A stretch of 32,000 bases of DNA, from positions 540,001 to 572,000 of the forward strand of contig NC_007494.2 in NCBI RefSeq assembly GCF_000012905.2. The letters are read 5' to 3'. Under the pieces are notes generated by a model, which saw only the letters and a program-made list of their open reading frames with translations, had not been told where the DNA came from and ran no database searches. The translations under genes were made by a program, and so were the position numbers. The stretch is from Cereibacter sphaeroides 2.4.1. Its GTDB lineage: Bacteria > Pseudomonadota > Alphaproteobacteria > Rhodobacterales > Rhodobacteraceae. Shown here one piece after another: positions 16,676 through 31,983 of the stretch (its first letter is position 1; each line of letters begins with the position of its first letter).

Positions 16676-16739
16676 CCCGCGCAGGCGCCTCCGGCTGGGC
16701 ATGTCCGCCGTTGGGCGCGGGGCGCCGGGGGACGGGACC

Positions 16740-18101: not shown

Positions 18102-21100
18102 TGCGCGCGCTCCGCCTCCTCCTCGCCGCCCTGACCTCGCGGACGCTCTGGACCTTCCTCGGGCTCGCGCTCCTCTGCGGGCTGGTCTGGCAGTTCGGCG
18201 CGCTGGTCTCGGTGGGCGAGACGGTGCCGCTCGCCTCCGACCTCGCGCGCGGGCTGGTCGTGGGCTGCATCGCGGTGGGCTGGCTTCTGTCGCTGCTGGC
18301 AGCCCAGCTGCGGGCGGCGCGCAGGAACCAGCTCTTCGTGACCGAGCTTGCGGCGCCCGCGCCCGCCGCCCCCGATCCCGGCGCGGCGGCCGTGGCCGAG
18401 GTCGGGGCGCGGTTCCGGCAGGTGATGGCCGAGATGAAACGCTCGCGCGTGGGCGGGCGGCGCTTTCTGCGCGACATGCCGTGGTATCTGCTGATCGGCC
18501 CGCCCGGCACCGGCAAGACCACGGCCCTGCGCCAGTCGGGGCTGCATTTCCCGATCGATCCCGGCGACGACCTGCAAGGCGTGGGCGGCACGCGGAACTG
18601 CGACTGGTTCTTCACCGAACAGGCCGTGCTGGTGGACACCGCCGGGCGCTACGTCCAGCAGCAGAGCGATCCCGAGGCCGATGCGGCGGAATGGTCGGGT
18701 TTTCTGGACCTTCTGAAGCGCCACCGCGGGCGGCGGGCGCTGAACGGCGTGATCGTGGCCCTGTCGATGACCGAGCTCCTTGGGCCCGAGCCTGCGCTGC
18801 GCGCTCATGGCCGCGAGATCCGCAAGCGGCTGAGCGAGCTCGGCCAGAGGCTCCAGATCCGCCTGCCGGTCTATCTGATGGTGACGAAGGCCGACCTCGT
18901 GCCGGGCTTCGAGACCTTCTTCGCGCCCCTGCCCGCGCGCGGGCGCGAGCAGGTCTGGGGGGCGACGCTCGCGCCCGACGAACGTCCCGAGGGCGGGGCG
19001 GTCGACCGCGAGGCCCGGGCGCTCTGGCAGGAACTCGAGGCCCGCGTCGGGCCGCGGCTGGCCGAGGAGGCCACGCTGGCCGACCGGGCCGAGATCTTCC
19101 GCTTCCCCGCGCGGATGGCCGAAGTCGAGGCGCCGCTGCGGGTGCTGATCGCCACCCTCTTCGGCGAGAGCCGCTACGAGGACAGCCCCTGGCTCCGCGG
19201 CTTCTACTTCACCTCGGCCACGCAGGAGGGCTCGCCCATCGACCGGATGCTCGGGGATCTGGCGGGCGCCTTCGGCCTCAGCGCGCCCGCGCCTCCCCGC
19301 CGGGCGCGGGGCGAGACACGCTCCTATTTCCTGCACGATCTTCTGGCGAAGGTGATCTTCCCGGAAGCCGGGCTCGGTCGCCTCGACCGGGCGGCGGAGG
19401 AGCGGCGCCGCTGGCTCTGGCGCGGCTCGGTGGCGGGCGCGGCGCTCGCCACGGCGGTGGCGGGGCTGGGGTTCCTTCTCTCGTTCCTCGGCTGGTCGGG
19501 CGCCATCGAGGATCAGGCGCGGCTGACCGCGGATCTCTCCGCCCGGCTGGCCAATGTGGCCGCGCGGCAGGCGCCGACCGAGCCGCTGGACCTTCCCCTC
19601 GCGCTGGAAGCCGCGACTGCCGCGGACGCCGCGCGCACGGAGCCGCCCTCGGGCCCCTTCGCCCTCATCGGCCCCTCGGCTGCGGCCGAGATCGAGCGGG
19701 CGGGCACCATCGCCTACGAGCGCACGCTGGCCAATGTGCTTGCGCCGCGGATGGTGGCGCTGCTCGAGGCCTCGATGTGGCGGCAGGTGCGCGATCCCGA
19801 CGACATGCTGGGCGCGCTCAAGGCCTATTTCATGCTCACCGGCCTCGCGCCCTACGACCGCGACTTCCTGACCGGCTGGCGGCAGGAGCAGCTGCCGCAG
19901 CAGGCGGTGCTCGACCCGTTCCCGACCGAGGCGGCCCGCTGGCACCAGCTGGCCGCGCTTTCCCTTTTCGGCACGCAGGGCGACCCCATCCCGCCCGACG
20001 AGGAGCTGGTGGCGGCGGCGCTGGCCAGCATCTGCACCATCCCCCTCGCGGCCCGCGCCTATGGCGCGCTGATGCAGGATCCCGCGGTCACGGGCCTGCC
20101 CGACTGGATCCCGGGCGACCGCGCCGGGCCGAACGGCGCGAGGATCTTCACCCGCCTCTCTGGCAAGACGCTGCGGGTGGGGCTGCCCGGCGCCTTCACC
20201 TTTGCGGGCTTTCACGAGACGATCCTGCCGCTCGTGCCCGAGGTGGCCGCGCAGGCCACGCTCGACCGGACCCTCTTTGCGGGCGGCTGCGGCGGCAGCG
20301 CCGGGGCCTCGGCCGCCACGCTCGAGGCGGACATCCTGAAGCTCTATTCCGACGATTTCATCGCGCGCTGGGATGGGCTTCTGCGCGACATCCGGCTGGC
20401 GCCGCTGACGGACTTCGCCACCGCCACTGCGGCGATGAAGGATCTGGCGAGCCCCGACAGTGCGCTGAAGCGGCTGCTCGCTGCGGTCGTGGCCGAGACC
20501 GACCTCACGCGCGTTCCCGCCCCAGATGCGGCGCCGCCCGAGGGTCTCCTCAAGGCCGCCGGCAAGAAGCTCGGGAAGGTGGGCAAGCTCGTGAAGGGGG
20601 CCGCGGCGCTGTCGGCGGGCTCCGCTCCGCCCACGGAGCCGCCGGGGCAGGCGGTGGCGCGCCATTTCGAGCCGCTGAAGGGGATGATCGCCGAGGTGGA
20701 GGGGGTGCCGCCGCGGATCGGGGATGCCGAACTCGCGCTCGGCGCGCTGGCCAATGCGCTTCAGACCGCGGCGGCCAATCCCGATCCGCAGGCGGCGCTG
20801 ACCGCGCAGGGGGGGCTTGCCACGCTGACCGGCGGGCTGACCGAGGTCGCCGCCCGCCTGCCGCCCCCCATCGGCGCCTGGCTCGAGGGGCTGGCCACGG
20901 ACACGGCCAGCGTGACGCGCGAGGCGGCGATCGCTCGGCTGAACGCGCGCTACCGGGCCGACATCCTGCCCTTCTGCCGCGCCGCCACCGCGGGCCGTTA
21001 TCCGTTCGAGCCGGGCTCGGCCATCGATGTGAACACAGCCGATTTCCAGCGCCTCTTCGGGCCCGGCGGCCTCTTCGACGGCTTCACGGGCGACGCGCTC

Positions 21101-21622
21101 GGGCCCTGGATCGATACGACGCGGCACCCTTGGGCCTGGCGCGCCGATCTGGGGCTCGATGCCCGGAGCCTCGCGCCCTTCGAGGCCGCCCGGCGGATGC
21201 GCGACGGTCTCTTCGCCGGAGGCATCGGCCCGGTGATGGGCTTCCTGCTTCAGGCGACGGACCTGTCGCCCAATGCCGCCCGGGTGACGCTGAGCCTCGA
21301 CGGCCAGCAGCTTGTCTACATGAATGCGGCCACGCCCCCCGTGGGCATGACCTGGCCCGGCCAGAACGGAACGAACCTCATCGTGCTCTCCTTCACGCCG
21401 CTCGACGGGTCGGCCGAGGCGGTGACCTCGGAATCCGGCGCCTGGGCCTGGCTCCGGCTGATCGGCAAGGGCAGCCTCGCGCCCACCGCGCAGCCCGACC
21501 TGTTCCGGCTGCGCCTTGCCGCCGGAGCCTATGCCGCGCGCTTCGATCTCCGGGCGAATTCGGTGGAGAACCCGCTCGACCTCAGGCTCTTCGGCGGGTT
21601 CCGCTGCCCGGATGGCTTCTGA
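18101..21622 (+). CDS. tssM: T6SS inner-membrane protein TssM (IcmF/ImpL), 1173 aa
   Basis: Two N-terminal TM helices, P-loop GPPGTGKT and VLVDTAGR, a third TM helix, then a large periplasmic IcmF-type domain. ATG 18101 shares one nucleotide with the tssL TAA. Confidence 0.95.
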   Translation: MRALRLLLAALTSRTLWTFLGLALLCGLVWQFGALVSVGETVPLASDLARGLVVGCIAVGWLLSLLAAQLRAARRNQLFVTELAAPAPAAPDPGAAAVAEVGARFRQVMAEMKRSRVGGRRFLRDMPWYLLIGPPGTGKTTALRQSGLHFPIDPGDDLQGVGGTRNCDWFFTEQAVLVDTAGRYVQQQSDPEADAAEWSGFLDLLKRHRGRRALNGVIVALSMTELLGPEPALRAHGREIRKRLSELGQRLQIRLPVYLMVTKADLVPGFETFFAPLPARGREQVWGATLAPDERPEGGAVDREARALWQELEARVGPRLAEEATLADRAEIFRFPARMAEVEAPLRVLIATLFGESRYEDSPWLRGFYFTSATQEGSPIDRMLGDLAGAFGLSAPAPPRRARGETRSYFLHDLLAKVIFPEAGLGRLDRAAEERRRWLWRGSVAGAALATAVAGLGFLLSFLGWSGAIEDQARLTADLSARLANVAARQAPTEPLDLPLALEAATAADAARTEPPSGPFALIGPSAAAEIERAGTIAYERTLANVLAPRMVALLEASMWRQVRDPDDMLGALKAYFMLTGLAPYDRDFLTGWRQEQLPQQAVLDPFPTEAARWHQLAALSLFGTQGDPIPPDEELVAAALASICTIPLAARAYGALMQDPAVTGLPDWIPGDRAGPNGARIFTRLSGKTLRVGLPGAFTFAGFHETILPLVPEVAAQATLDRTLFAGGCGGSAGASAATLEADILKLYSDDFIARWDGLLRDIRLAPLTDFATATAAMKDLASPDSALKRLLAAVVAETDLTRVPAPDAAPPEGLLKAAGKKLGKVGKLVKGAAALSAGSAPPTEPPGQAVARHFEPLKGMIAEVEGVPPRIGDAELALGALANALQTAAANPDPQAALTAQGGLATLTGGLTEVAARLPPPIGAWLEGLATDTASVTREAAIARLNARYRADILPFCRAATAGRYPFEPGSAIDVNTADFQRLFGPGGLFDGFTGDALGPWIDTTRHPWAWRADLGLDARSLAPFEAARRMRDGLFAGGIGPVMGFLLQATDLSPNAARVTLSLDGQQLVYMNAATPPVGMTWPGQNGTNLIVLSFTPLDGSAEAVTSESGAWAWLRLIGKGSLAPTAQPDLFRLRLAAGAYAARFDLRANSVENPLDLRLFGGFRCPDGF

Positions 21623-21629
21623 GCGCGCC

Positions 21630-22103
21630 ATGGCCGGGTTCTTCGGCAAGCTGCCGTCCACCGGCGATTTCGTGACGCGCGGCCTCTCGCCCGCCTTCCG
21701 CGCGGCCTGGGACGGCTGGATCACGCGCCATGTCGCGGGCCGGCTCGGCGCGGGTCCCGAGGGCGGGCTGCGGGTGCGGCTCCGCTCCGGCGGGCGGGTC
21801 GCGGGGGGCGTGGTGCTGCCCGGCCGCGACCGGATCGGCCGGAGCTTCCCGCTCTCGCTCCTTCTGGTGGCGGACGGGCTGCCCGGACCGGACGGCCTCG
21901 ATCCGTGGTGCGAGGCGGCCCGGGCGGCGGCCGCCGTCCACCCGGAGCCGGACGCGCTCTGGCAGGCGCTGAGCGATATTCCTGTCCCGGAAGGCGACGC
22001 CGCAGCGGCCGCGCCGCTCCTTCTCTGGACGGGTAAGGCCAGCGCCGCCTGCGATCCCCGCGACCCGGCGGAGGCCCTCGGGAGGCTCCTCGGAACCGGC
22101 TGA
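21630..22103 (+). CDS. tagF: T6SS-associated protein TagF (ImpM)
   Basis: MAGFFGKLPSTGDFVTRGL is the TagF signature. The ORF-track start at 21516 lies inside tssM, so ATG 21630 is preferred. Confidence 0.9.
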   Translation: MAGFFGKLPSTGDFVTRGLSPAFRAAWDGWITRHVAGRLGAGPEGGLRVRLRSGGRVAGGVVLPGRDRIGRSFPLSLLLVADGLPGPDGLDPWCEAARAAAAVHPEPDALWQALSDIPVPEGDAAAAAPLLLWTGKASAACDPRDPAEALGRLLGTG

Positions 22104-22112
22104 CCGGCACCG

Positions 22113-24416
22113 TCAGTTCAGGTTGATCTTCGAGCCCTTGCCGGTGATCTCGCCGCCGGCCTTGAGGTTGATCTTGCCCGAGGCGTCCAGCGTGATGTCC
22201 TTGCCCTTGAGGACGATGGTGCCGTCCTTCTTCAGCGTGATCTCGGCCGAGCCGCATTTCAGGGTGATCTCGTCCTTGACGTCGAGCGTGTAGCTCTTGC
22301 CCACGCCGATGCCCATGGCGCCGTCGGCCTTCTGCAGGTCGTCCTTGGCCACCTGCGTGGCGCGGGAGCCGCCGACGGTGGTCACCTGATCCGAGCCGGT
22401 GCTGACCGTCTGTTTCGCCCCCACCGTCACCGACTGGTCCGCGCCGACCGAGACGGTCTGCGACCCGCCCACGGTCCAGCCGTCGTCGGCGCCCACCGAA
22501 TGGGTCTGACCCGCGCCTACCGAGACGCTGCGGCTTGCGGCGATGGTGTTGGTCTGGACCGCGCCGACCGAGCGTGTCTCGGCCCCGCCGACACTGTCGG
22601 TGCGCGCCGCCCCGACCGTCACCGTCTGGGCGATGCCGACCGTCTGGGTGTGGTTCATGCCGATGGTCTCGGTCGCATTCCGCGCCACCGCGATCGTCTC
22701 GTCCGCGCCGACCCGCAGCGCGCGGTTCGCGCCCACGCTCTCGCTGTCGTCGACGCCGATCGAGACGGTGCGGTTCCGGCCCACGCTCGTGTCCTTGTCG
22801 TTGCCCACGCTCTCCCTGCGGTCGTGCGCCACGGACTGCACGGCGTCATGGCCCACATCCTCGGCGAAATCATGGCCGATGGTGCGGCTCTCGTCGTTCT
22901 TGATGAGCTCGGTATGGTCCTTCTGCGCCTGGAAATAGACCTCCTCCGCACCCGCCTTGTCCTCGAAGCGCAGCTCGTTCCAGCCGCCGCCTCCGGGCGA
23001 GGAGTGCGACTTCCAGCCCGACTGGGTGGCCTGGCCCGGCAGGCCGTAGGGCGGCATCTGCTCGGCATTGTAGACCCGGCCCGTGACGATGGGGCGGTCG
23101 GGATCGCCCTCGATGAAATCGACGATGACCTCCTGCCCGATCCGGGGGATCTGGATAAACCCCCAGCCGGCCCCGGCCCAGGTCTGGCTCACGCGGACGA
23201 AGCAGGAGGAGGCCTCGTTGCGGGCGTCGAGCCGGTCCCAGAAGAAATGCACCTTCACCCGCGCATATCTGTCGGTGAAGATCTCCGCGCCCGCGGGCCC
23301 GACCACGAGGGCGGTCTGCGGCCCCTTCATCACCGGGCGCGGGGTGCGCCGCTCGGGCCGGTAGGGGACGCGGGCGGGGACGAGCGACAGATCCACCTCG
23401 TAGCCCACCTCGGCGCGCGACTGACCCGAGCGGAACTGATCGTCCCAGAGCCGGTAGCGGCAGGCGGTGACGAGATAGTCGTCGTTCTCCGCCTCGCGCG
23501 GGAAGAGATCGAGCCGGAAGATCCGGCCCGGCCAGAGCGGCCGCGCGGTGCCGCGGGCCTCGATGCGCACCTGCGGCGCCTGCGCCTCCTCCAGCCGGAG
23601 CCGGGACAGCCGGTCGCCCGCGGGGAGGGTGCGGTAATCCCCGGGCCAGCGATAGTGCTCGGCACCGTCGGCCGCATGGCCGAGCGGATTTTCGGCGCGG
23701 CTCGTCAGGTCCGACGAGGGCTTCTCGAAATCGTAGTCGCCCTGCGAGACCTTTCCCGGCCGGATATGCGCCCGGGGCAGCCAGGCGGTGATGAAGTCGC
23801 CGTCGCGGAAGCTCACCCGGCTGTCGGGCTCGTAGGGCAGGATCTCGGCCCCCGGCGCGGGCGCGAGCCGGGCATTCGTGTCGAAGAGGACGAGCCTGTG
23901 GCCCTCTGCCTCATGCTCGAAGAAATAGCCGATCCCCTCATGCTCCATCAGCCGCTGCACGAAATCGAGATCGGTTTCGCCATACTGCACGCAGTAGTCG
24001 CGCGGCGGATAGCTGGCCTGCAGCCTGAAATCCCAGTCGAGGCCGGGGATCTCCCCCAGGACGGCCTCGAGGATCTCGGGCACCGAGCGGTCCTGGAAGA
24101 TCCGGTTGTCGCGCCGCAGGCCGAGGAGCGCCATGGAGGGCTCCATCGTCAGCCGGTAATGGGCATGGTCGTCGCGGATCTCGTCCAGCCCGAAGGCGGT
24201 GGCAATGCCGTGGAAATGGCGCGGCACCTCGCCCCGCACCGTCACCAGCACCGGCGTGCCGAGGATGTCGGCCGCGCCGAGATCGAGCGACTTGCTGGCG
24301 AGGAGCAGCTCGTAGCGGAACGGGCGCCCCAGCCCGTCCTCGCCCTCGAGCGCCGAGAACCACAGATCCTCGGTCGCGGCGGGAAGGGACAGGGTGATTT
24401 CGCGGGCCTCGGACAT
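22113..24416 (-). CDS. vgrG: T6SS spike protein VgrG (TssI), 767 aa, no obvious C-terminal effector extension
   Basis: gp27-like N-terminus (MSEAREITLSL..LEGEDGLGRPFRYELLL), gp5 OB-fold region, a long Val-Gly repeat beta-helix (about 22338-22850), and a C-terminal ..ITLKCGSAEITLKKDGTIVLKG..KINLN. ATG 24416 preceded by GAAGGGA. The upstream part of the 875-aa ORF is rejected. Confidence 0.95.
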   Translation of the reverse strand: MSEAREITLSLPAATEDLWFSALEGEDGLGRPFRYELLLASKSLDLGAADILGTPVLVTVRGEVPRHFHGIATAFGLDEIRDDHAHYRLTMEPSMALLGLRRDNRIFQDRSVPEILEAVLGEIPGLDWDFRLQASYPPRDYCVQYGETDLDFVQRLMEHEGIGYFFEHEAEGHRLVLFDTNARLAPAPGAEILPYEPDSRVSFRDGDFITAWLPRAHIRPGKVSQGDYDFEKPSSDLTSRAENPLGHAADGAEHYRWPGDYRTLPAGDRLSRLRLEEAQAPQVRIEARGTARPLWPGRIFRLDLFPREAENDDYLVTACRYRLWDDQFRSGQSRAEVGYEVDLSLVPARVPYRPERRTPRPVMKGPQTALVVGPAGAEIFTDRYARVKVHFFWDRLDARNEASSCFVRVSQTWAGAGWGFIQIPRIGQEVIVDFIEGDPDRPIVTGRVYNAEQMPPYGLPGQATQSGWKSHSSPGGGGWNELRFEDKAGAEEVYFQAQKDHTELIKNDESRTIGHDFAEDVGHDAVQSVAHDRRESVGNDKDTSVGRNRTVSIGVDDSESVGANRALRVGADETIAVARNATETIGMNHTQTVGIAQTVTVGAARTDSVGGAETRSVGAVQTNTIAASRSVSVGAGQTHSVGADDGWTVGGSQTVSVGADQSVTVGAKQTVSTGSDQVTTVGGSRATQVAKDDLQKADGAMGIGVGKSYTLDVKDEITLKCGSAEITLKKDGTIVLKGKDITLDASGKINLKAGGEITGKGSKINLN

Positions 24417-24432
24417 GGGCTTTCCCTTCGTT

Positions 24433-26841
24433 TCACAGGACCTGCGGACAGGCGAGCCCGCGCACGAGTCGTCGCACCGAGAGCGGGTTCGGCGCCGCGT
24501 CGAAGGCGGCTTCGAGAAAGAGCCGCGCACCGCCGGAGCGCAGGTCGATGAGGAACCGCAACCCGCCCTCGCGGGGCCGCAACCGGAAGGGCTCGAGGAG
24601 CCGGAGGAGGCCCCAGGGCCCCGGCGCCGCCAGCCGCGCCGCGCCCTCGGGCGTGCGGAAAGCGATCTCGGCGCCGCGGTCGGGCTGCAGGCCGGGCCAG
24701 TCGAGCCGCAGGCTGTCGCTCGTGGTGGTGACGGGGCCACCCTGCCCGCCCAGCATCACCGCGGCCGTGCCCCGCTCGGCCAGAGCGGTGAGCGTGAGCG
24801 TCCTCGGCCCGGTCAGGCCGGGACCTGCGGCGCTCGCCCGTTCGAGGAAGGCCGCGCTGTCGGGCGAAAGCCCGGCGAAGCGCGCCTCGGGCTTCCAGCG
24901 CCAGGGGCTGGCGCTCCGGTCGAGATAGGGCGCGGCGCGCGCCGCCACGAAGGCCGCGAGCGCCCCGTTCCGGCCCAGAAGCCGCTCCACCCCGGCGGGG
25001 TCGGCGTCGGCCCCCTCGGCGAACGGATAGCGCCCGTCGAGCGTCGCGCGACAGAGCGGCAGCACTTCGGCCTGCCACGCCGCCGTCAGCGGGTTCGTGA
25101 GACCCGCGGCCTGCGCCGAGCCCGCCTGCGCCAGCAGATCCTCGATGATCTCGACCACCAGCGCGGGCGCCTGCCGCAGCGTGGCGATGCTGCGCGCCCG
25201 GTCCTCGGCCTGCATCAGCCGCTGGAGACCCGTCGGACTGTCGCGGTCGAGGCCCCCCAGAGCCGCATTCAGCGCCGCAAAGAGCGCGGCGATCCGTGTC
25301 ATGCCGCCCTGATCCACGAACTGACGCGTCGGCCCGAAGACGGCCGCGATCTTCAGCTGCAGCGCATGGGGCCTCAGCGGATCCTCGCCGCCCACCTGAT
25401 GCCAGACCTCGCGCAGAAGCTGCGTGAGCGGCGACTCGGGTCGCGCCAGCGCGCCCGAGACCCGCACGGCCGTGTCGGCGGTCCGGAAGGGCACCACGCG
25501 CAGATCGGCGAGCAGGGCCTGCCACCGGGCGAGCGTCTCGGCCTGCAGAAGCTCCAGTACGCGGTCGGCGCTGGCGTTGCTCTCGGCGGTCGGCCGGTCG
25601 AGCAGCCGCGCCTCGCGCCGCGCCGCCTGCACCGCCAGCCCGGCGCCGCGGTCGCGGGCGTAGGTCCAGCCCGCCGCCGTGAAGAGGCCGGGGACCGGCG
25701 CGTCGAGCGCGGCCCCCGACCGACGGATCACCACGGCTGCGAGCCCCGGCACCGCCGCCTCCGCTTGCCACGGCGGAAGCGCCGCCGCGCCTTCCGAGCG
25801 CAGGAGTTCGAGCCAGGCGCGGTCGGCCTCGGACGCTTCGGCGGCAAAGGCGCGGGCCTGCGCCAGAAGATCGGCATCCGGCTGCGGCAGGGGTCCCTCG
25901 GGCGGCGCCAGCTGCCGCACATGCCGCGCGAGGCCCCGCATCTCCGCCGGAGCCGCGCGACGGTCGAGCCAGCCTGCCAGCCAGGCAGGCGACCAGTCAG
26001 CCGCGCCGCTCAGGATCGCCCAGGCCCGCACCGTGTCATAGCTCGCCGCCGGATCGGCCTCCGAGGCGATGGCCTCCTCGACGGCCTGCACCAGAACCGC
26101 CGGCAGCGCGGCTTGCACTTCCGCGCGGTAGGCTGCCTCGGCACCGGCCGCCGCGTCGAAGCCGAGAGGCCCCGCGGCCAGCGCGACCGGCGCCTGCTGC
26201 ACCTCGGTCGCGACACCGGACGCCGCATCCGCGAGCGTGTCGAGCCGCGCGCGGAGCGGCAGGGCCGCCGCCTCCGCAGCACGGGCCTCGAAGGCCTCGG
26301 CCAGCCTGTGATGGAAGCTCCATTCGACATGCAGCGCCCAGCCCGCCACCGCGAACCCGAAGGAGGCGGCCAGAACCGCCGCGATCCCGCGCCAGCTTTC
26401 CACGGCGGTCGGCTGGAGGCGTGTCCGCCGGGCCTCCAGCCGGTCAAGGCAGGCCTGCAGGAACGGCTGCACCGGCGCGAAGGCGGGCCCGGCCTCGGCG
26501 GCGCTGCGGAGGAAGCGGCGCAGGTCCGGCTCGCCCAGAGCGCGACCGTCGAAGAGCTGCGCCCGCGCGGCCGCTTCCCACAGACGCAGGTCGAGGCTCG
26601 GGTTCGCGCGCGCCTGCCGGTCGATCACCAGCGCCAGCGCATAGCGCGCGGGCGGCACCGCGGCCGCGGGAACCTCACCTGCAAGCGCGCGCCCGAACCG
26701 GTCGAGATGCGCCCGGGCCTCGGCCGCCAGCGCTGCGGGAGGATCACGCCTCCGGCCCAGCTCCTCGGCGAAGGCCAGCGCGGGGGCCGCGGCGCGGGCG
26801 AACGGATCGGAGGCGGGGCCTCGGGCGAGATCCTGCGGCAT
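24433..26841 (-). CDS. DotU(TssL)-like N-terminal domain, single TM helix and TssM/IcmF-like periplasmic domain; no NTPase domain (802 aa)
   Basis: The C-terminal ~630 aa are colinear with the periplasmic part of the TssM in this window (for example LPLCRATLDGRYPFAEGADADPAGVERLLG vs LPFCRAATAGRYPFEPGSAIDVNTADFQRLFG). The N-terminus shows a weak DotU-like pattern. TM helix WRGIAAVLAASFGFAVAGWALHV. ATG 26841 shares one nucleotide with the upstream stop. Confidence 0.85.
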   Translation of the reverse strand: MPQDLARGPASDPFARAAAPALAFAEELGRRRDPPAALAAEARAHLDRFGRALAGEVPAAAVPPARYALALVIDRQARANPSLDLRLWEAAARAQLFDGRALGEPDLRRFLRSAAEAGPAFAPVQPFLQACLDRLEARRTRLQPTAVESWRGIAAVLAASFGFAVAGWALHVEWSFHHRLAEAFEARAAEAAALPLRARLDTLADAASGVATEVQQAPVALAAGPLGFDAAAGAEAAYRAEVQAALPAVLVQAVEEAIASEADPAASYDTVRAWAILSGAADWSPAWLAGWLDRRAAPAEMRGLARHVRQLAPPEGPLPQPDADLLAQARAFAAEASEADRAWLELLRSEGAAALPPWQAEAAVPGLAAVVIRRSGAALDAPVPGLFTAAGWTYARDRGAGLAVQAARREARLLDRPTAESNASADRVLELLQAETLARWQALLADLRVVPFRTADTAVRVSGALARPESPLTQLLREVWHQVGGEDPLRPHALQLKIAAVFGPTRQFVDQGGMTRIAALFAALNAALGGLDRDSPTGLQRLMQAEDRARSIATLRQAPALVVEIIEDLLAQAGSAQAAGLTNPLTAAWQAEVLPLCRATLDGRYPFAEGADADPAGVERLLGRNGALAAFVAARAAPYLDRSASPWRWKPEARFAGLSPDSAAFLERASAAGPGLTGPRTLTLTALAERGTAAVMLGGQGGPVTTTSDSLRLDWPGLQPDRGAEIAFRTPEGAARLAAPGPWGLLRLLEPFRLRPREGGLRFLIDLRSGGARLFLEAAFDAAPNPLSVRRLVRGLACPQVL

Positions 26842-27689
26842 CAGATCCGCCCCTCCGCACGCCAGCGGCGCAGCGTCTCTTCGCCGACCTCGAAATGCAT
26901 CGAGTCCTCGCGGTTATAGGCCGCGCCCCAATACCAGCCCTCATCGTTGAAATATTCGGCGAGGTAGAGAAGCCCCGCCTGCGTGCCGCCATCGGCGAAC
27001 GGATCGAGCACGCCTTCGAGCGTCAGGTCGATGGCCGTGCCCCAGGAATGGTTCGAGATCGAGCTCGTGGATCCCCGGACGAACCGCGCACAGAGGGCGC
27101 CGGCGGTGCCGACCTTGGCATGGATGTCGGGATCGGACTGCCTGAGCCGCTCGAGCACCCGGGCCAGACTGTCGAGCGCGGGGCGGATCATGCTGACCGT
27201 GATCGGCCCGACGGTGCGTGTCTCGAGAAGCGCCTTCAGACGCGGCGCGGTGACCGGCTGGCAGGCGGTGCTATAGCTCTCGCGCGGGGGGCCGAGCAGT
27301 TCGAGCATCACGCGGTTCTTCGGCTGGGTGACGCCCTTGTTGAAGCGCGCGCGGGCCAGCTTGACCTCTTCCGTCAGCGCCTCGGAGGGCGGCTCATCGA
27401 AGGCCTCGCCGGCGAAGGGATCGGCGGCCACGACGGGCTCGCTCCGGTTCGCGACGAGGCTCAGGCTGTCGCGCAGCTGCGCCACCTCGGCGGTCAGGGC
27501 GGCGATCCGCCCGTCGAGCGCCCCCCGCGCCGCATCCGCCTCCGTCAGGGCCGCCTCGAGCCGCTTCAGGCGCAGTTCGGTCGCGCCATCGGCCGTGCGC
27601 AGAAGGCTCGTCACCACCGCGAAGGCCATCGCCGCCACCACGAGGCCGATGGCGACGATCAGGGGCCCGGCGAGGCTGCCGCGCTGCAT
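26841..27689 (-). CDS. Membrane-anchored LAS-family (peptidase M15, VanY-like) metallopeptidase with a coiled-coil linker; TagX-like candidate
   Basis: N-terminal TM helix (GPLIVAIGLVVAAMAFAVVTSLL), a heptad-like Ala/Leu/Glu-rich stretch, an exact SxHxxGxAxD motif (SNHSWGTAID, 27027-27056) and a C-terminal DSMHFE (His265, 26895-26897). Confidence 0.8.
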   Translation of the reverse strand: MQRGSLAGPLIVAIGLVVAAMAFAVVTSLLRTADGATELRLKRLEAALTEADAARGALDGRIAALTAEVAQLRDSLSLVANRSEPVVAADPFAGEAFDEPPSEALTEEVKLARARFNKGVTQPKNRVMLELLGPPRESYSTACQPVTAPRLKALLETRTVGPITVSMIRPALDSLARVLERLRQSDPDIHAKVGTAGALCARFVRGSTSSISNHSWGTAIDLTLEGVLDPFADGGTQAGLLYLAEYFNDEGWYWGAAYNREDSMHFEVGEETLRRWRAEGRI

Positions 27690-27692
27690 GGC

Positions 27693-28439
27693 TCAGCCCT
27701 CCGCCACGTCAACCACCACCACCGAGACATTGTCGGGCCCGCCCGCATCGAGCGCCGCGCGGACGAGCGCGAGGCAGGACTCGTAAGGCCCCACCGCCGA
27801 CGCCAAATGCCCCTCAAGGACGGGATCGGCCACGCAATGGGTGAGCCCGTCCGAGCAGAGCAGAAGCCGGTCGCCGGCTGCGATCTCCAGCGCGACCGTC
27901 TCGACCTCGACCGTATCGGAGGCCCCCACCGCTCGGGTGACGAGGTTCGCCTCGGGATGGAGGGCGGCAGCGGCCGGATCGAGGTGGCCTGCGTCCACAA
28001 GCGCCTGCACGACGCTGTGATCGCGGGTGAGCGCGCTCAGGCGGCCCGCGCGCAACAGATAGGCCCGGCTGTCGCCCACCCAGGCGACATGGGCCGTGGT
28101 GCGGGCGATGAGCAGGGCCACGACCGTAGCCCCCATCTGCCCGACCTCTGCCTTCCGCGCGTGCGCGCGGATGGCGGCATTGGCAGCCTCGAGCCCCGCC
28201 ACCAGCATCCGCCGGGGCTCGCCGCCCTCGGGGATCGTCTCGAGATGGTCGATCACGATATCGGCCGCCACATCGCCCTGCCCGTGGCCGCCCATCCCGT
28301 CCGCCACGGCCCAGAGCTGGCCCGCGGGGTCGGTCAGGATCGCATCCTCGTTCCGCGCGCGCCGGTGGCCGCGGTGGGTGATGCCCCAGCCCTCGACCCG
28401 CAGCCCGGCACGGGGCACGACCGTCGTCGGCGCCTTCAT
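27693..28439 (-). CDS. pppA: PP2C-family Ser/Thr phosphatase (T6SS PppA-like)
   Basis: RNEDA..AVADGMGGH..GATVVAL..WVGDSRAYL..LLLCSDGLT..GGPDNVSVVVVDV are the PP2C motifs. ATG 28439 (MKAPTTVV) preceded by GAGGG. The longer ORF to 28742 would overlap the divergent gene. Confidence 0.9.
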   Translation of the reverse strand: MKAPTTVVPRAGLRVEGWGITHRGHRRARNEDAILTDPAGQLWAVADGMGGHGQGDVAADIVIDHLETIPEGGEPRRMLVAGLEAANAAIRAHARKAEVGQMGATVVALLIARTTAHVAWVGDSRAYLLRAGRLSALTRDHSVVQALVDAGHLDPAAAALHPEANLVTRAVGASDTVEVETVALEIAAGDRLLLCSDGLTHCVADPVLEGHLASAVGPYESCLALVRAALDAGGPDNVSVVVVDVAEG

Positions 28440-28581
28440 CGCGCGGGCCCTCGGGGCGGGACGCGCGGCCGTCGCACTTCCGGCAGGGTCATGGCGGCTG
28501 GTCCAAATGGGTGAAACCAATGCGCGTTCATGATAGCCTGACTCAGTGATTTCAGCTTGTCCTTTTTGCGGGAGGACCGCG

Positions 28582-29346
28582 ATGGCCCGCCGAGCGACCC
28601 TGACGCGCCGGATCTGCGCGCTTCTTCTGGCGAGCCTCGCCGCTGCCCCGACCGGGGCCGGCGCAGAGGGCCTGACCGATGCGGAGCTTCTCGGGCTTTT
28701 CCACCGGCAGCGCGACGCCTTCGCGGCGGCCCGGAGCGGCAATGGTCAGGCGCGCGGGCTGAAGCTCGTGACGGTGGACCGGATCGGGCCGGCGCCCGCC
28801 ATGGCCGATGTGCCGGACAGCCTCGGGGCGCCCGCGGGGGAGGATCCCGGCCTTCGGCCGACGGCCTCGACCGACAGCGCGCCGGGCGAGACCGGGCGGC
28901 CGGTCCTCGGCCTGCCGCAGGGGGCCGACCGGCTGGCCGCCGCGGATCCGCCGCCCGAGGGGCGTGAGACGGCGGAAGTCTCTCCTGAGAGCTTCGGCCT
29001 TCTCGATCCGGCGCTGCAGGTCAATGTGCGCATCCATTTCGCCTTCGACTCGGCGGTGCTGGCCGCGGATCAGACGCCGCTTCTCGCGCAGCTCTGCACG
29101 GTGATGAAGGCGAGCGACATCCGCCTGTTTCAGATCGTGGGCCACACCGATGCGGCGGGCAGCGAGGCCTACAACCAGCAGCTCTCGCTCCTGCGGGCCG
29201 AGGAGGTGCGCCGCTACCTGACCGGCCCCTGCGGCATCGCGCCGGAACGGCTGCGCGCCGTGGGGATGGGCGAGCGGTTCCTGGCCGACAAGAAGGACCC
29301 CCGCAGCGGCGAGAACCGGCGGGTCGAGTTTCAGGCGCTGAGCTAG
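28582..29346 (+). CDS. Secreted OmpA-family peptidoglycan-binding protein
   Basis: ATG 28582 with GGAGG 6 nt upstream (the ORF-track start at 28546 is a GTG). Signal peptide ..LLLASLAAAPTGAGA/EG. C-terminal OmpA-like domain (IHFAFDSAVL..IVGHTDAAGSEAYNQQLSLLRAEEV..NRRVEF). Confidence 0.85.
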   Translation: MARRATLTRRICALLLASLAAAPTGAGAEGLTDAELLGLFHRQRDAFAAARSGNGQARGLKLVTVDRIGPAPAMADVPDSLGAPAGEDPGLRPTASTDSAPGETGRPVLGLPQGADRLAAADPPPEGRETAEVSPESFGLLDPALQVNVRIHFAFDSAVLAADQTPLLAQLCTVMKASDIRLFQIVGHTDAAGSEAYNQQLSLLRAEEVRRYLTGPCGIAPERLRAVGMGERFLADKKDPRSGENRRVEFQALS

Positions 29347-30269
29347 ACCACCGGCATCGGCCCGCTCGCGCGGCGGCCGCGGTAGATCGAGCGGACGAAG
29401 GCAGAGGCCTCCGCATCGAGATCGGCAAGGGCAAGCCCCAGCTCCGCGCGCAGCCTGCGGCCGAGGCGGGCGATGGCCGCCCTCCGGCCGGCCTCGGTGT
29501 CATGGGCAGGCAGGATCTCCTCCTGCCAGAAGCGGGCGAACCAGCCGTAATCGGCGACGCGCGCCGGATCGAACCCGTCGAGCGCCACCATCGCGCAGCC
29601 GAGACGGGCACCGAGAAGGGCCCAGTCGCCATGCGCGACATCGATGCCGACCGAGCACCAGATGCGCAACCGCTCGTGGTTCGCGGCCCCGACATGGCGC
29701 AGGAGCGCCTCGCCCCGCGGCAGGTCCGGATGGACGTCATAGGCGAGCCGCCCGCCGCCGAGGTTCAGCTTCACCCCTTCGCGGAACCCGGCGCGGAAGG
29801 CCTGCGCCGGCGTCCCGGTGACATGCACCTCGGAGAGCACCCGGTTGATCTGGAAGTAGGGCACCGTCCAGCAGAAGTCGACCGCCGCCTCGGGCCGTCC
29901 GGCATGTTCGTGCGTGCGCAGCCCGAGGAGCGTGGCGCGGGGCCAGAGCTTGACGCCGCCATTGCCATATTCGAGCCCGTTGATCGCGTTCCGGGCGCTG
30001 AAGGACAGGACCGAGCCCAGATCGCGCGGAGACAGGTCGAGGCGCCCCGCGAAGAAGCCGGGATCCGTCACCAGATTGTCCGCATCCACGGTGAAGACAT
30101 GGGCCGAGGTTGCGATCTCTCCCGCCCGCCGGTGGGCGGCATCGAAGCCGCGCACGCCATGGACCCGGCGCGTCCGCGGCACCGCGGCGGCGAGATGGGC
30201 GAAATGCGCCTCGGCGTTCGGCTCGTCGAAGCTCAGGAACACCACGTCGCAGGCGGCCAGATCGATCAT
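29343..30269 (-). CDS. Hypothetical protein, possible nucleotide-sugar glycosyltransferase-like (308 aa)
   Basis: GC3-biased frame. ATG 30269 (MIDLAACDVVFLSFDEPNAE) forms an ATGA overlap with the upstream gene. A DxD-like FTVDADN motif is present. Function is not securely recognised. Confidence 0.55.
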   Translation of the reverse strand: MIDLAACDVVFLSFDEPNAEAHFAHLAAAVPRTRRVHGVRGFDAAHRRAGEIATSAHVFTVDADNLVTDPGFFAGRLDLSPRDLGSVLSFSARNAINGLEYGNGGVKLWPRATLLGLRTHEHAGRPEAAVDFCWTVPYFQINRVLSEVHVTGTPAQAFRAGFREGVKLNLGGGRLAYDVHPDLPRGEALLRHVGAANHERLRIWCSVGIDVAHGDWALLGARLGCAMVALDGFDPARVADYGWFARFWQEEILPAHDTEAGRRAAIARLGRRLRAELGLALADLDAEASAFVRSIYRGRRASGPMPVV

Positions 30270-30676
30270 CTCTCCCACTCCGCACGGGTGCCGAGATGGA
30301 CGATCGCCGCCGGCTGCCATTTCGACAGGAGCACGGCGCGGCGGCGCGCGAGATAGGCGGGCCAGTCGCCCGACCCGAGCGGCGCGTTGGCGGCAGCGTT
30401 GGGCAGCGTGTCATAGGCAAGGCCCGCCCCCCGCAGGCCGCGGAAATCCACGAGATCCACGACCAGCACCGGCACCATCTCCTGTTCACGCGCCACCTCG
30501 CGCGCGACCGGCAGGAGAGGCTCGATCTCGGGCCAGTCGAGGCCAGTCAGATCGACGAGCATGATGGCGAGGGGTCGGTCCTGCCGGGCGACCCCGGCGA
30601 TCACCGGGCTGTCCGCGGTGAAGGGCCAGGCGGCCGCGTCCGGATCGAGCGGCGGCTCTGCCGGAGGCGCCGGCAT
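30266..30676 (-). CDS. Hypothetical protein (136 aa)
   Basis: ATG 30676 shares one nucleotide with the stop of the upstream glycosyltransferase gene, and the stop overlaps the next start (ATGA). Coding-like GC3. No motif recognised. Confidence 0.5.
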   Translation of the reverse strand: MPAPPAEPPLDPDAAAWPFTADSPVIAGVARQDRPLAIMLVDLTGLDWPEIEPLLPVAREVAREQEMVPVLVVDLVDFRGLRGAGLAYDTLPNAAANAPLGSGDWPAYLARRRAVLLSKWQPAAIVHLGTRAEWER

Positions 30677-31749: not shown

Positions 31750-31983
31750 GGATCGAGCGTCCCACGTCCCGCGCCCGCAGGCGAGAGATTTCTCCGCCCA
31801 TACGCCGCCAGCCGAAGCCCTCGGCCAGCGGCTGCGGCTCCGACCCGCAGGCGGCCGCTCCGTCCCTCGGACATCGGGCGCCGTGCTGCCCAGGCGACGC
31901 GCGCGGCGCTTGACGGAAATGCGCATCTGACGTCTACTTTTCAGGGCGCGAGCCTCTGTCCGCGCGATTTGAGGTGAGTCATT

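What the first reader, a model, noticed from the sequence alone, without database searches (positions are those of the whole stretch)
22113..28439. Four-gene minus-strand module pppA / M15 peptidase / DotU-TssM chimera / vgrG behaves as one tightly coupled unit
The gaps between the genes are 3 nt (27690-27692), a 1-nt stop/start overlap (TGATG at 26841), and 16 nt with a Shine-Dalgarno sequence (24417-24432). The module therefore links four functions to the spike gene: a signalling off-switch (PP2C), a cell-wall hydrolase, and an extra envelope-spanning protein. In the imp loci I know, pppA sits with tagF/ppkA, and vgrG is followed by adaptor and effector genes. Here vgrG is the last gene and ends 9 bp from the convergent tagF stop, so no cargo follows it. 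This arrangement may define an uncharacterised accessory subsystem for envelope breaching or spike docking.
Basis: inference. Interest (0 to 1): 0.7.

Follow-up and report, generated by a model that had tools for sequence, protein, structure and literature searches.

The report
Conserved accessory operon of a T6SS
The four tightly packed genes are real and belong to a type VI secretion cluster, but the first three (a phosphatase, a membrane-anchored cell-wall peptidase and a TssL/TssM hybrid membrane protein) form an accessory operon already noted by sequence analysis in rhizobia, and the spike gene is only a lineage-specific neighbour.

Summary
The gene boundaries, the 3-nt gap, the TGATG overlap, the 16-nt Shine-Dalgarno spacer and the 9 nt between the convergent stops are all as stated. 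The window holds a complete T6SS cluster of the H1-like "Group 3" type.

The module consists of:
- pppA, a PP2C phosphatase.
- A PF13539 (VanY/LAS-type) peptidase with one N-terminal transmembrane helix, in the same functional class as TagX.
- An 802-aa hybrid: DotU-like cytoplasmic domain, one transmembrane helix, and a TssM periplasmic domain. It lacks TssM's TM1-2 and NTPase domain.
- vgrG, with no effector domain.

At least 155 species encode a relative of the hybrid. In essentially all 80 Rhodobacterales loci examined, pppA-M15-hybrid-vgrG keep this order, with a divergent ompA gene. The conserved, translationally coupled unit is the trio, with median gaps of 3 nt. vgrG usually sits about 97 nt downstream, behind its own conserved -10-like box. 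It lies elsewhere in Rhizobium and Sinorhizobium, and is tightly fused again in one distant MAG.

The same proteins were described from sequence alone in Sinorhizobium fredii USDA257 (2025) as PppA, TagY, TagM and TagN. I found no functional test. The most likely role is to help the membrane complex cross and anchor in the cell wall. This is a new member of a known but uncharacterised kind, of moderate interest.

The parts
27693..28439 (-). pppA: PP2C Ser/Thr phosphatase and first gene of the accessory operon. It is the presumed antagonist of the cluster's PpkA kinase (4320-6326) in the Fha/TagH threonine-phosphorylation pathway.
   Evidence: PF13672 E 1.1e-14 and PF00481 E 1.7e-11. NCBIfam Stp1-type PP2C E 4e-62, below that model's cut-off. 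ATG at 28439. Always the first gene of the trio in 80 loci and in Rhizobium, Sinorhizobium and MAG loci.
28529..28537 (-). Promoter-like -10 box (GGCTATCATG), 89 nt upstream of the pppA start, in the pppA/ompA divergent intergenic region.
   Evidence: Pattern hit; sequence. An equivalent box (GCTATGAT / GCTATGCT / GCTATACT, preceded by AAAAnGGATTT) lies about 95 nt upstream of PP2C in most related loci: at most 1 mismatch in 16 of 72 loci against about 4 of 72 in shuffles. That it acts as a promoter is inferred, not shown.
26841..27689 (-). Membrane-anchored periplasmic peptidoglycan peptidase of the PF13539 VanY/LAS type (TagX-like; 'TagY' in S. fredii). It has one N-terminal transmembrane helix (about residues 9-30, nt 27600-27665), a coiled coil, a variable linker, and a conserved catalytic domain (residues 106-282, nt 26844-27374).
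   Evidence: PF13539 E 1.4e-12, 48 bits against a cut-off of 25. One hydrophobic segment. Invariant in 20 orthologues: H214, D221, D262 and H265 (the LAS zinc and catalytic motif SxHxxGxAxD...DxxH), plus C143 and C200. Weak collinear match to Ply500 (2VO9) at the catalytic core.
24433..26841 (-). TssL/TssM hybrid of 802 aa ('TagM' in the S. fredii USDA257 sense), with no NTPase domain and no TM1-2.
- DotU-like cytoplasmic domain: residues 13-140, nt 26422-26805.
- Single transmembrane helix: residues 152-172, nt 26326-26388.
- TssM-type periplasmic domain: IcmF-related, residues 199-483, nt 25393-26247.
- TssJ-binding-type C-terminal domain: about residues 598-780, nt 24502-25050.
   Evidence: PF06761 E 6.8e-48 and PF06744 E 5e-9. 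TIGR03348 score 211, below the cut-off of 388. DotU evidence. One transmembrane helix against three in the true TssM. Full-length model pLDDT 85.8; Foldseek top hits are TssM in 6IXH and 6HS7 (E 7e-13) and the TssM C-terminal domain 4Y7M (TM 0.75). Only 24-26% identical to the cluster's own TssM.
24417..24432 (-). 16-nt spacer with a Shine-Dalgarno-like AAGGGA between the hybrid and vgrG. It is a contracted remnant of a spacer of about 97 nt that carries a promoter-like box in most relatives.
   Evidence: Sequence. Gap distribution: median 97 nt, 19 nt in L001. The conserved GCTATACT box about 55 nt upstream of vgrG occurs with at most 1 mismatch in 34 of 75 relatives, against about 2 of 75 in shuffles.
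22113..24416 (-). vgrG (TssI) spike, 767 aa, with no C-terminal effector domain. It is the only vgrG in the window and the last gene of the minus-strand run.
   Evidence: TIGR03361 E 1.5e-191; Phage_GPD, Phage_base_V and Gp5_trimer_C. The C-terminal 173 aa contain only gp5 repeats and a weak DUF2345 match. 9 nt separate its stop from the tagF stop.
28582..29346 (+). [quoted passage not shown] It travels with the trio in two of the three cluster architectures.
   Evidence: PF00691 E 3.3e-17. N-terminus MARRATLTRRICALLLASLAAAPTGAGA. Adjacent and divergent to PP2C in essentially all 80 Rhodobacterales loci and in the Rhizobium, Sinorhizobium and L088 loci.
21630..22103 (+). tagF, the last gene of the plus-strand core operon (ppkA ... 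tssM tagF), convergent with vgrG.
   Evidence: TagF_N E 5.4e-15. Start MAGFFGKLP at 21630, 7 nt after the tssM stop.

Best explanation
Shown. The minus-strand run is an accessory operon of a complete Group-3 (H1-like) T6SS cluster. Its conserved core is three translationally coupled genes.
- pppA, a PP2C phosphatase.
- A type-II membrane-anchored periplasmic PF13539 (LAS/VanY) peptidase with an intact zinc and catalytic motif.
- A hybrid protein that joins a TssL-like (DotU) cytoplasmic domain, through a single transmembrane helix, to a TssM-like periplasmic domain. That domain includes the C-terminal module which in TssM binds TssJ. The hybrid lacks TssM's TM1-2 hairpin and NTPase domain.

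A divergent OmpA-type peptidoglycan binder accompanies the trio. In this lineage the cluster's only vgrG has been pulled to within 16 nt of the hybrid, so it is most likely read from the same transcript.

Inferred mechanism. The hybrid inserts into, or nucleates, the TssJLM membrane complex, using the DotU side towards the baseplate and the TssM side towards TssJ and the outer membrane. It brings the membrane-tethered peptidase to that spot so that peptidoglycan stems are cut locally. This is what TagX does in Acinetobacter and what TssM-recruited MltE does in E. coli. The OmpA protein and the OmpA domain of TssL then re-anchor the complex to the wall. Placing pppA first couples production of these assembly helpers to the phosphatase that resets the PpkA/Fha switch. 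Co-transcribing vgrG adds the hub on which the baseplate forms.
For: - Gene identities and junctions.
- Complete T6SS context.
- Family of the hybrid: about 800-830 aa, at least 155 species, confined to Rhodobacterales, Rhizobiaceae and a few MAGs.
- Conserved order in 80 loci. Median 3-nt gaps for pppA-M15 and M15-hybrid.
- The trio stays contiguous in three different cluster architectures.
- DotU-like N-terminus.
- TssM-like periplasmic part.
- One transmembrane helix.
- Invariant catalytic H214/D221/D262/H265 and a Cys pair in the peptidase.
- TagX precedent (inner-membrane PF13539 L,D-endopeptidase required for Hcp secretion, interacting with TssL and TssM): PMC5061870 and PMC13584744.
- The same four proteins, with the same proposed role, in S. 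fredii USDA257: PMC11872809.
- No sigma-70 consensus site or junction terminator inside the module.
Against: - No experiment on any member of the trio was found. Every functional step is by analogy.
- The peptidase is not a close orthologue of TagX. It matches the Ralstonia T6SS M15 protein only over the catalytic core (29% over 72 aa, E 0.19; hhalign E 0.018).
- The DotU assignment for this particular copy is below Pfam's cut-off. hhalign against the cluster's own TssL is inconclusive (E 0.013, probability 3%).
- The cluster already has full TssJ, TssL (with an OmpA domain) and TssM, so the hybrid is not obviously needed.
- Related Leisingera clusters carry the peptidase and OmpA genes without the hybrid.
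- Co-transcription of vgrG is inferred from spacing only. In most relatives vgrG appears to have its own promoter.
Confidence: 0.6

Rival explanations
1. Brake model. The trio is a negative-regulatory unit. PppA switches the phosphorylation pathway off, and the hybrid acts as a decoy or dominant-negative paralogue that ties up TssJ (periplasmic side) and/or TssK and Fha (DotU side), limiting how many membrane complexes assemble.
For: - pppA, an established off-switch, is always the first, translationally coupled gene.
- The hybrid lacks TssM's NTPase and TM1-2, but keeps the TssJ-binding-type C-terminal domain.
- 22 of 80 orthologues carry an N-terminal PRTV(L/M)PP motif resembling the TssL N-terminus. 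In Agrobacterium the TssL N-terminus is the PpkA and Fha target (PMC3953482).
Against: - The co-encoded peptidase belongs to a class that promotes secretion (TagX).
- Strict conservation of a large 800-aa protein with more than 90 invariant positions fits a structural role at least as well.
- The window's own copy lacks the RTV motif.
Confidence: 0.15
2. Effector model. The M15 peptidase is an antibacterial cell-wall toxin delivered on the adjacent VgrG, that is, cargo encoded upstream of the spike rather than downstream. The hybrid would act as its adaptor or chaperone.
For: Peptidoglycan hydrolases are common T6SS effectors. The gene lies two genes from vgrG, and no other cargo is seen next to vgrG.
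Against: - An invariant N-terminal transmembrane anchor and coiled coil give it TagX-like architecture rather than effector-like architecture.
- There is no adjacent immunity gene; the gaps are 3 nt and -1 nt.
- In Rhizobium and Sinorhizobium the gene is not next to a vgrG; in the R. etli locus examined, vgrG lies at the opposite end of the cluster with its own downstream small genes.
- In Leisingera the gene pairs with ompA, not with a vgrG.
Confidence: 0.06
3. Adjacency without a functional unit. The four genes are simply neighbours inherited with the whole cluster, and vgrG (and perhaps others) is transcribed independently from promoters inside upstream coding sequence.
For: - All loci with the same order belong to one T6SS lineage. 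TssC is 82% identical even to Rhizobium, so synteny could be plain vertical inheritance.
- In most relatives vgrG has its own -10-like box in a spacer of about 97 nt.
Against: - The trio remains contiguous and tightly spaced while its position in the cluster changes: next to clpV, next to vgrG, or directly after tssM.
- Overlapping or 3-nt junctions are maintained in more than 70 loci.
- In the window the vgrG spacer is 16 nt and lacks the box.
Confidence: 0.12
4. The hybrid is a decaying duplicate of tssM, a relic without function.
For: It looks like a truncated TssM and scores below the TssM equivalog cut-off.
Against: - Intact full-length ORFs in at least 155 species at 41-69% identity, with conserved length and many invariant residues.
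- A confident fold.
- A distinct, conserved N-terminal domain that TssM does not have.
- Only 24-26% identity to the resident TssM, so it is an old paralogue.
Confidence: 0.02

Closest known systems
PppA / TagY / TagM / TagN of the Sinorhizobium fredii USDA257 Group-3 T6SS (PMC11872809, 2025; sequence-based description only)
   Same: The protein set is the same: a PP2C phosphatase; an M15 peptidase; a protein of about 820 aa with a DotU domain, one transmembrane helix and two IcmF domains; and an OmpA protein of about 250 aa with a signal peptide. Sinorhizobium and Rhizobium plasmids carry homologues of the window's hybrid (about 39-48% identity) and peptidase (44-50%) in the order ompA | PP2C-M15-hybrid. 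The core machinery is very close: TssC is 82% identical.
   Different: In the rhizobial loci examined the block sits beside clpV and the hybrid is the last gene; in the R. etli locus examined, vgrG with small downstream genes is at the other end of the cluster. Here the block sits beside tagF and is fused to vgrG by 16 nt. I could not compare the USDA257 sequences themselves because no supplement was held.
TagX, the T6SS L,D-endopeptidase of Acinetobacter (also found in Burkholderia and Ralstonia)
   Same: It is encoded in a T6SS cluster, has an N-terminal membrane anchor with a C-terminal periplasmic PF13539 domain, and carries the LAS metal and catalytic residues.
   Different: The window protein has one predicted transmembrane helix plus a coiled coil, where TagX has two. 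Similarity to the Ralstonia T6SS M15 protein is limited to the catalytic core, so this is a separate subfamily. Activity and requirement for secretion are untested.
Canonical TssM (IcmF) and TssL (DotU) of the membrane complex
   Same: The periplasmic part folds like TssM, including the C-terminal domain solved with TssJ (4Y7M/4Y7L, TM 0.73-0.77). The N-terminus resembles the TssL cytoplasmic domain. The topology is N-in/C-out through one helix.
   Different: It has no TM1-TM2 and no IcmF-related_N NTPase domain. It has no OmpA domain. It is only 24-26% identical to the resident TssM and shows no pairwise similarity to the resident TssL. The true tssL (16701-18101) and tssM (18098-21622) are present in the same cluster.
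Non-canonical membrane-complex helpers: TsmK/TslA with TagX in Acinetobacter, and MltE recruited by TssM in enteroaggregative E. coli
   Same: The concept is the same: an extra envelope protein that stabilises the TssL-TssM complex and positions a peptidoglycan hydrolase at the assembly site.
   Different: There is no sequence relationship. TsmK occurs only in clusters without tssJ, whereas this cluster has tssJ (14886-15338). MltE is a lytic transglycosylase encoded outside the cluster.
PpkA/PppA/Fha/TagF threonine-phosphorylation pathway (P. aeruginosa H1-T6SS, A. tumefaciens)
   Same: The kinase (4320-6326), the FHA protein (13664-14893), TagF and the PP2C phosphatase are all present.
   Different: pppA is not next to tagF or ppkA. 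Instead it heads the accessory operon. The classical position (tagF-PP2C) is seen in the related Leisingera cluster.

Membership tests
TagM-type DotU/IcmF hybrid (sensu S. fredii USDA257) | About 820 aa, with an N-terminal DotU domain, a single transmembrane helix and two IcmF periplasmic domains. | tested here: met
   802 aa. PF06761 and PF06744. One transmembrane helix at 152-172. DotU: window E 0.003; 16 of 18 family members at or below 0.01, best 4.9e-10. The model's top PDB hit is the TssL cytoplasmic domain.
TagM-type DotU/IcmF hybrid (sensu S. fredii USDA257) | Encoded in a Group-3 T6SS cluster together with PppA, an M15 peptidase and an OmpA protein. | tested here: met
   Homologues in Sinorhizobium and Rhizobium plasmids have the same neighbours.
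TagM-type DotU/IcmF hybrid (sensu S. fredii USDA257) | Direct sequence homology to the USDA257 protein itself. | not tested
Other S. fredii and S. americanum records match at 44-46% identity over residues 260-802.
TssM (IcmF) core subunit | Three transmembrane helices and a cytoplasmic IcmF-related_N NTPase domain, with a score above the TIGR03348 equivalog cut-off. | tested here: not met
   No PF14331 hit. One transmembrane helix. TIGR03348 scores 211 bits against a cut-off of 388. The true TssM is at 18098-21622.
TssM (IcmF) core subunit | Periplasmic IcmF-related domain and a TssJ-binding-type C-terminal domain. | tested here: met
   PF06761 E 6.8e-48 and PF06744 E 5e-9. The profile hits 4Y7L/4Y7M at E 3e-11. 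Foldseek against 6IXH gives E 7e-13; against 4Y7M, TM 0.75. Actual TssJ binding cannot be tested here.
TssL (DotU) core subunit | DotU domain above Pfam's cut-off, followed by a C-terminal transmembrane anchor (long form: plus an OmpA domain). | tested here: inconclusive
   The window copy scores 17.7 bits, below the cut-off of 27, though the family is supportive. hhalign against the cluster's TssL gives E 0.013 and is collinear. There is no OmpA domain. The true TssL is at 16701-18101.
TagX (T6SS L,D-endopeptidase) | T6SS-cluster-encoded protein with a C-terminal PF13539 domain and conserved LAS metal-binding and catalytic residues. | tested here: met
   PF13539 at 48 bits, above the cut-off of 25. 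H214, D221, D262 and H265 are invariant in 20 orthologues.
TagX (T6SS L,D-endopeptidase) | N-terminal membrane anchor placing the catalytic domain in the periplasm. | tested here: met
   One strongly hydrophobic N-terminal segment. An invariant Cys pair (C143/C200) in the catalytic domain is consistent with a periplasmic disulfide; this is an inference. TagX has two predicted transmembrane helices.
TagX (T6SS L,D-endopeptidase) | Orthology to characterised TagX proteins beyond the shared domain. | tested here: not met
   Against the Ralstonia T6SS-cluster M15 protein, presumed to be the TagX homologue of PMC5061870, only the catalytic core aligns: 29% over 72 aa, E 0.19; hhalign E 0.018.
TagX (T6SS L,D-endopeptidase) | Cleaves the L-Ala-D-Glu bond of peptidoglycan stems and is required for Hcp secretion. 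| not testable with these tools
   Needs an enzyme assay and a deletion mutant.
PppA (T6SS PP2C phosphatase) | PP2C fold, encoded in a T6SS cluster that also encodes PpkA and an FHA protein. | tested here: met
   Its substrate (Fha, TssL or the hybrid) cannot be tested here.
VgrG (TssI) | gp27-like and gp5-like domains, with a score above the TIGR03361 cut-off. | tested here: met
   637 bits against a cut-off of 186. No effector extension.

The most novel reading that the evidence does not exclude
The DotU/TssM hybrid may be a genuine structural subunit of a non-canonical, heteromeric T6SS membrane complex. In one polypeptide it would link the baseplate side (DotU domain) to the TssJ and outer-membrane side (TssM periplasmic domain). 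It would dock a dedicated membrane-tethered peptidoglycan peptidase and would itself be controlled by Thr phosphorylation. Two observations point this way. PppA is translationally coupled to it, and a TssL-like N-terminal PRTV(L/M)PP motif is present in 22 of 80 orthologues. That would make it a new architecture for the T6SS envelope-spanning complex in Rhodobacterales and rhizobia, not a mere helper.
Probability: 0.25. Interest if true: 0.65.

Novelty: new member of a known kind. Interest (0 to 1): 0.4.

Why it matters
How a T6SS gets its membrane complex through its own cell wall is solved only for a few model organisms: TagX in Acinetobacter and MltE in E. coli. This locus belongs to a widespread alphaproteobacterial lineage (marine and freshwater Rhodobacterales, and nodulating rhizobia). 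That lineage carries a fixed three-gene kit of phosphatase, tethered peptidase and TssL/TssM hybrid, plus an OmpA partner. The kit has only been noted from sequence and never tested.

The comparative result here gives clear targets for deletion and interaction studies. The trio is the invariant unit across three cluster layouts, while vgrG joins it only in some lineages. [quoted passage not shown]

For genome annotation, the hybrid should not be called TssM or 'DotU', and the peptidase should not be called a D-Ala-D-Ala carboxypeptidase.

Tried and rejected
- Sequence searches of the PDB with the peptidase alone and with a 20-sequence profile gave nothing significant. Ply500 (2VO9) appears only at E 0.85, so the family assignment rests on Pfam and the invariant motif.
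- hhalign of the hybrid's N-terminus against the cluster-type TssL was collinear but weak (E 0.013, probability 3%). BLASTP against the resident TssL found nothing.
- The PDB profile search with the hybrid hit DotU chains only at E 0.4-1.
- A second large protein search with the peptidase profile returned only close relatives in the 120 rows listed and no protein named TagX. I therefore fetched a Ralstonia T6SS M15 gene through the plasmid collection.
- The sigma-70 consensus scan found no promoter in 21900-28700, and terminator-like hits were at chance level and not at junctions. The scan suits a 72% GC alphaproteobacterium poorly, so this is weak evidence.
- Folding the vgrG/tagF convergent stop region gave no structure better than shuffles (z = +1.7), and no inverted repeat was found.
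- I considered a sigma-54 reading of the box upstream of ppkA (TGGC-N8-TGCT). I dropped it because the equivalent boxes upstream of vgrG in relatives do not fit.
- Shorter (800-900 aa) IcmF-like hits from the exhaustive search were checked as possible further hybrid families. Most are N-terminally cut canonical TssM. Three lack the NTPase domain but begin with hydrophobic, transmembrane-looking segments and show no match to the hybrid's DotU-like N-terminal profile.
- No supplementary table of the USDA257 paper was available to read its gene order.
- The R. etli Mim1 effector paper does not mention these genes.

Full report
**1. Checking the observation**

The window (32 kb, about 72% GC) contains a complete type VI secretion cluster.
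- On the minus strand: clpV/tssH (1537-4206).
- On the plus strand: ppkA (4320-6326), tssA, tssB, tssC, hcp, tssE, tssF, tssG, the FHA gene tagH, tssJ, tssK, tssL (DotU plus OmpA), tssM (18098-21622) and tagF (21630-22103).

Convergent with tagF are the four genes of the finding.
- The pppA stop is followed by 3 nt and then the M15 start.
- The M15 stop and the start of the next gene overlap as TGATG.
- A 16-nt spacer with an AAGGGA ribosome-binding core precedes vgrG.
- 9 nt separate the vgrG and tagF stop codons.

Pfam and NCBIfam confirm PP2C, Peptidase_M15_4, IcmF-related plus IcmF_C, and VgrG. VgrG has no effector extension, and nothing is encoded after it.

**2. The 'DotU-TssM chimera'**

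The 802-aa protein has one hydrophobic helix (residues 152-172). The cluster's real TssM has three, and TssL has one. It has no IcmF-related_N (NTPase) domain, and it scores below the TssM equivalog cut-off.

On this copy alone, the N-terminal 150 residues give only a sub-threshold DotU hit (E 0.003). The assignment is nevertheless sound.
- 16 of 18 orthologous N-termini match PF09850, best E 4.9e-10.
- An AlphaFold model of residues 1-205 is confident (pLDDT 90, six helices followed by the long transmembrane helix).
- Its best PDB match is the cytoplasmic domain of TssL (6Y4R, probability 0.99, TM 0.64). The Foldseek E-value is poor, as is usual for small helical bundles.

The full-length model (pLDDT 85.8) matches TssM in the two cryo-EM membrane-complex structures (6IXH and 6HS7, E down to 7e-13). 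It also matches the TssM C-terminal domain that was crystallised with TssJ (4Y7M/4Y7L, TM 0.73-0.77, rmsd 3.7 Å).

The protein is only 24-26% identical to the resident TssM and has no pairwise similarity to the resident TssL. It is therefore an old paralogue, not a recent in-cluster duplication.

**3. The peptidase**

The 282-aa protein has, in order:
- an N-terminal transmembrane helix;
- a coiled coil;
- a variable linker;
- a strongly conserved domain of about 175 residues.

The core of that domain is PF13539. In 20 orthologues the LAS-family motif is invariant (S-x-H214-x-x-G-x-A-x-D221 ... D262-x-x-H265), and so are two cysteines.

PF13539 plus a membrane anchor in a T6SS cluster is the definition of TagX. 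TagX is the Acinetobacter L-Ala-D-Glu endopeptidase required for Hcp secretion, and it interacts with TssL and TssM (PMC5061870, PMC13584744).

I fetched the M15 gene of a Ralstonia solanacearum T6SS cluster, presumably the TagX homologue cited in that paper. It aligns with the window protein only over the catalytic core (29% over 72 residues, E 0.19; profile comparison E 0.018). The window protein is therefore in the same functional and structural class as TagX but is not its orthologue.

**4. Comparative genomics**

The hybrid family is compact.
- A word-indexed search found about 100 proteins of 790-855 aa, all from Rhodobacterales where named except one Xanthobacteraceae MAG. The next hits are canonical 1,170-1,200-aa TssM proteins at E 1e-31 or worse.
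- An exhaustive profile search of 1.8 billion representatives found 28 representative clusters (at 50% identity) with the DotU-like N-terminus, about 20 of them full-length. They come from Paracoccaceae, Rhizobium and a few MAGs.
- A scan of one genome per species found 155 species with a relative.

In the 80 loci fetched, tblastn with all the window's proteins gave the same order essentially everywhere: ompA (divergent), then PP2C, M15, hybrid, vgrG, then convergent tagF, tssM, tssL, tssK, tssJ.

The junction lengths separate the genes into two groups.
- PP2C-M15 and M15-hybrid both have a median gap of 3 nt, mostly between -4 and +5.
- Hybrid-vgrG has a median gap of 97 nt. It is short only in the window (16 nt) and in its closest genome relative, Rhodobacter sp. 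NSM (19 nt).

That longer spacer carries a conserved -10-like box, GCTATACT. It occurs with at most one mismatch in 34 of 75 spacers, against about 2 of 75 in shuffled spacers. It lies about 55 nt before the vgrG start and is often preceded by GGAAnTTCC.

A related box lies about 95 nt upstream of PP2C in most loci. It is retained in the window at 28529-28537, 89 nt before the pppA start.

**5. Other cluster layouts**

Three arrangements differ from the Rhodobacterales one.
- On Rhizobium etli and Sinorhizobium americanum plasmids, and in one metagenomic contig, the order is tssA, ppkA (reverse), clpV, ompA (reverse), then PP2C, M15, hybrid. There the cluster ends. In R. etli, vgrG lies at the far end beyond tagF and is followed by two small genes.
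- In a distant Pseudomonadota MAG the order is tssL, tssM, PP2C, M15, hybrid, vgrG, all co-directional, with gaps of -4, 10 and 23 nt and no tagF.
- In Leisingera plasmid clusters (TssC only 57% identical), ompA and the M15 gene are a divergent pair, PP2C follows tagF in the classical position, and there is no hybrid.

Three things follow.
- The invariant unit is the trio PP2C-M15-hybrid.
- The ompA-M15 partnership occurs without the hybrid. The hybrid was never seen without the peptidase in the plasmid sample (38 records against 172).
- vgrG is attached in two of the three hybrid-bearing layouts.

**6. What is already known**

Full-text searches found one paper and its preprint that describe these genes. 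It is the S. fredii USDA257 T6SS study (PMC11872809), which reports the following from sequence analysis only.
- 'TagM': 821 aa, with a DotU domain, a single transmembrane helix and two IcmF domains.
- 'TagN': 248 aa, with a signal peptide and an OmpA domain.
- 'TagY': an M15 peptidase, compared explicitly with TagX.
- PppA.

[quoted passage not shown] The 2026 review of T6SS accessory factors lists TagX but has no entry for the DotU/IcmF hybrid. The R. etli Mim1 effector paper does not mention these genes. I found no functional data on any of them.

**7. Most likely mechanism**

Shown:
- the domain architectures and topologies;
- the intact catalytic motif;
- tight coupling of the trio across three cluster layouts;
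- the TssM-like fold, including the TssJ-binding-type domain.

Inferred, by analogy with TagX/TsmK/TslA in Acinetobacter and MltE-TssM in E. coli:
- The hybrid joins or seeds the TssJLM complex.
- It positions the tethered peptidase to open the peptidoglycan locally.
- The OmpA protein, together with the OmpA domain of TssL, re-anchors the complex.
- pppA as the leading gene ties expression of these helpers to the reset of the PpkA/Fha switch.

In this window vgrG is most probably read through from the pppA promoter, because its usual promoter-bearing spacer has been lost.

The main rival is a 'brake' model, in which the hybrid titrates TssJ or baseplate and Fha partners. It is kept at about 15%. 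It gains a little from an N-terminal PRTV(L/M)PP motif in 22 of 80 orthologues (absent in the window copy). That motif resembles the TssL N-terminus, which is phosphorylated and bound by Fha in Agrobacterium (PMC3953482). The effector, mere-adjacency and relic readings are less likely, for the reasons given under the rival explanations.

**8. Verdict**

It is an accessory subsystem for envelope transit and anchoring, and it is experimentally uncharacterised. However, it is not an undescribed arrangement, the functional unit is the trio with ompA rather than the tetrad, and the fusion to vgrG is lineage-specific.

I file it as a new member of a known kind, of moderate interest (0.4). The open question worth testing is whether the TssL/TssM hybrid is a true subunit of a variant membrane complex.

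Noticed in passing
L002-L080, spacer between the hybrid gene and vgrG; the equivalent in the window is 24417-24432: Most Rhodobacterales relatives have a spacer of 80-200 nt with a conserved -10-like box, GCTATACT, about 55 nt before vgrG. It occurs with at most 1 mismatch in 34 of 75 spacers, against about 2 of 75 in shuffles, and is often preceded by a GGAAnTTCC palindrome. The window and L001 have lost the whole spacer.
   Followed up: partly
window 28529-28537 (-), window 4264-4272 (+), and the region upstream of PP2C in L001-L080: A similar box (GCTAT[GAC][AC]T, with AAAAnGGATTT about 25 nt upstream) lies about 95 nt before PP2C in most loci. In the window it is GGCTATCATG, 89 nt before pppA. 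CCTATGCTG lies 47 nt before ppkA. This may be a common promoter type, or a regulator site, for the T6SS operons of this lineage.
   Followed up: partly
N-termini of hybrid orthologues in L003-L058 (for example L004, L022, L046, L056); window TssL at 16701-16810: 22 of 80 hybrid orthologues begin with a PRTV(L/M/I)PP motif resembling the N-terminal motif of TssL (the window's TssL has ARTRIRPS). The window's hybrid lacks it. In Agrobacterium an N-terminal Thr of TssL is the PpkA target bound by Fha.
   Followed up: partly
window 1146-1568 (-): A 140-aa ORF lies immediately downstream of clpV. It has a weak OB-fold/DUF6484 signal, and its C-terminal stretch (ITLAPDGRVTIRG...VQLN) resembles the extreme C-terminus of the cluster's VgrG (ITLKKDGTIVLKG...INLN). 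It may be a small spike-associated protein.
   Followed up: no
window 12-440 (+), 463-1149 (+) and 29343-30320 (-): Three ORFs with coding-type GC3 flank the cluster and have no family match. The 325-aa ORF and the GT4 glycosyltransferase gene (30676-31926) are also next to ompA in L001 and L026. The T6SS cargo of this cluster was not identified in the window, and no PAAR gene was recognised.
   Followed up: no
L083 12609-14108, L085 27762-29903, L086 9972-11093: Caspase-like (Peptidase_C14) genes recur beside these alphaproteobacterial T6SS clusters. In L086 one lies directly after vgrG.
   Followed up: no
L084 5959-6525 (Pseudomonas aeruginosa megaplasmid) and about 100 similar records: A 188-aa homologue of the peptidase's catalytic domain (about 40% identical to residues 116-282) is carried by Pseudomonas megaplasmids of about 400 kb. 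No T6SS genes are annotated in the 12.5-kb stretch examined around it.
   Followed up: partly
P0243, P0169 and P0218 (exhaustive protein search): A different kind of short IcmF-like protein exists (810-855 aa). These have no hit to the cytoplasmic NTPase domain (PF14331), their N-terminal sequences contain hydrophobic, transmembrane-looking stretches, and they do not match the hybrid's DotU-like N-terminal profile. Their origin and context are unknown.
   Followed up: no
L090 25211-33652 (Ralstonia solanacearum megaplasmid): In the Ralstonia cluster the M15 (TagX-type) gene is followed by PAAR, a hypothetical gene, tssM, tagF and an OmpA-family gene. The pairing of a T6SS peptidase with a separate OmpA protein therefore also occurs outside the alphaproteobacteria.
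   Followed up: no
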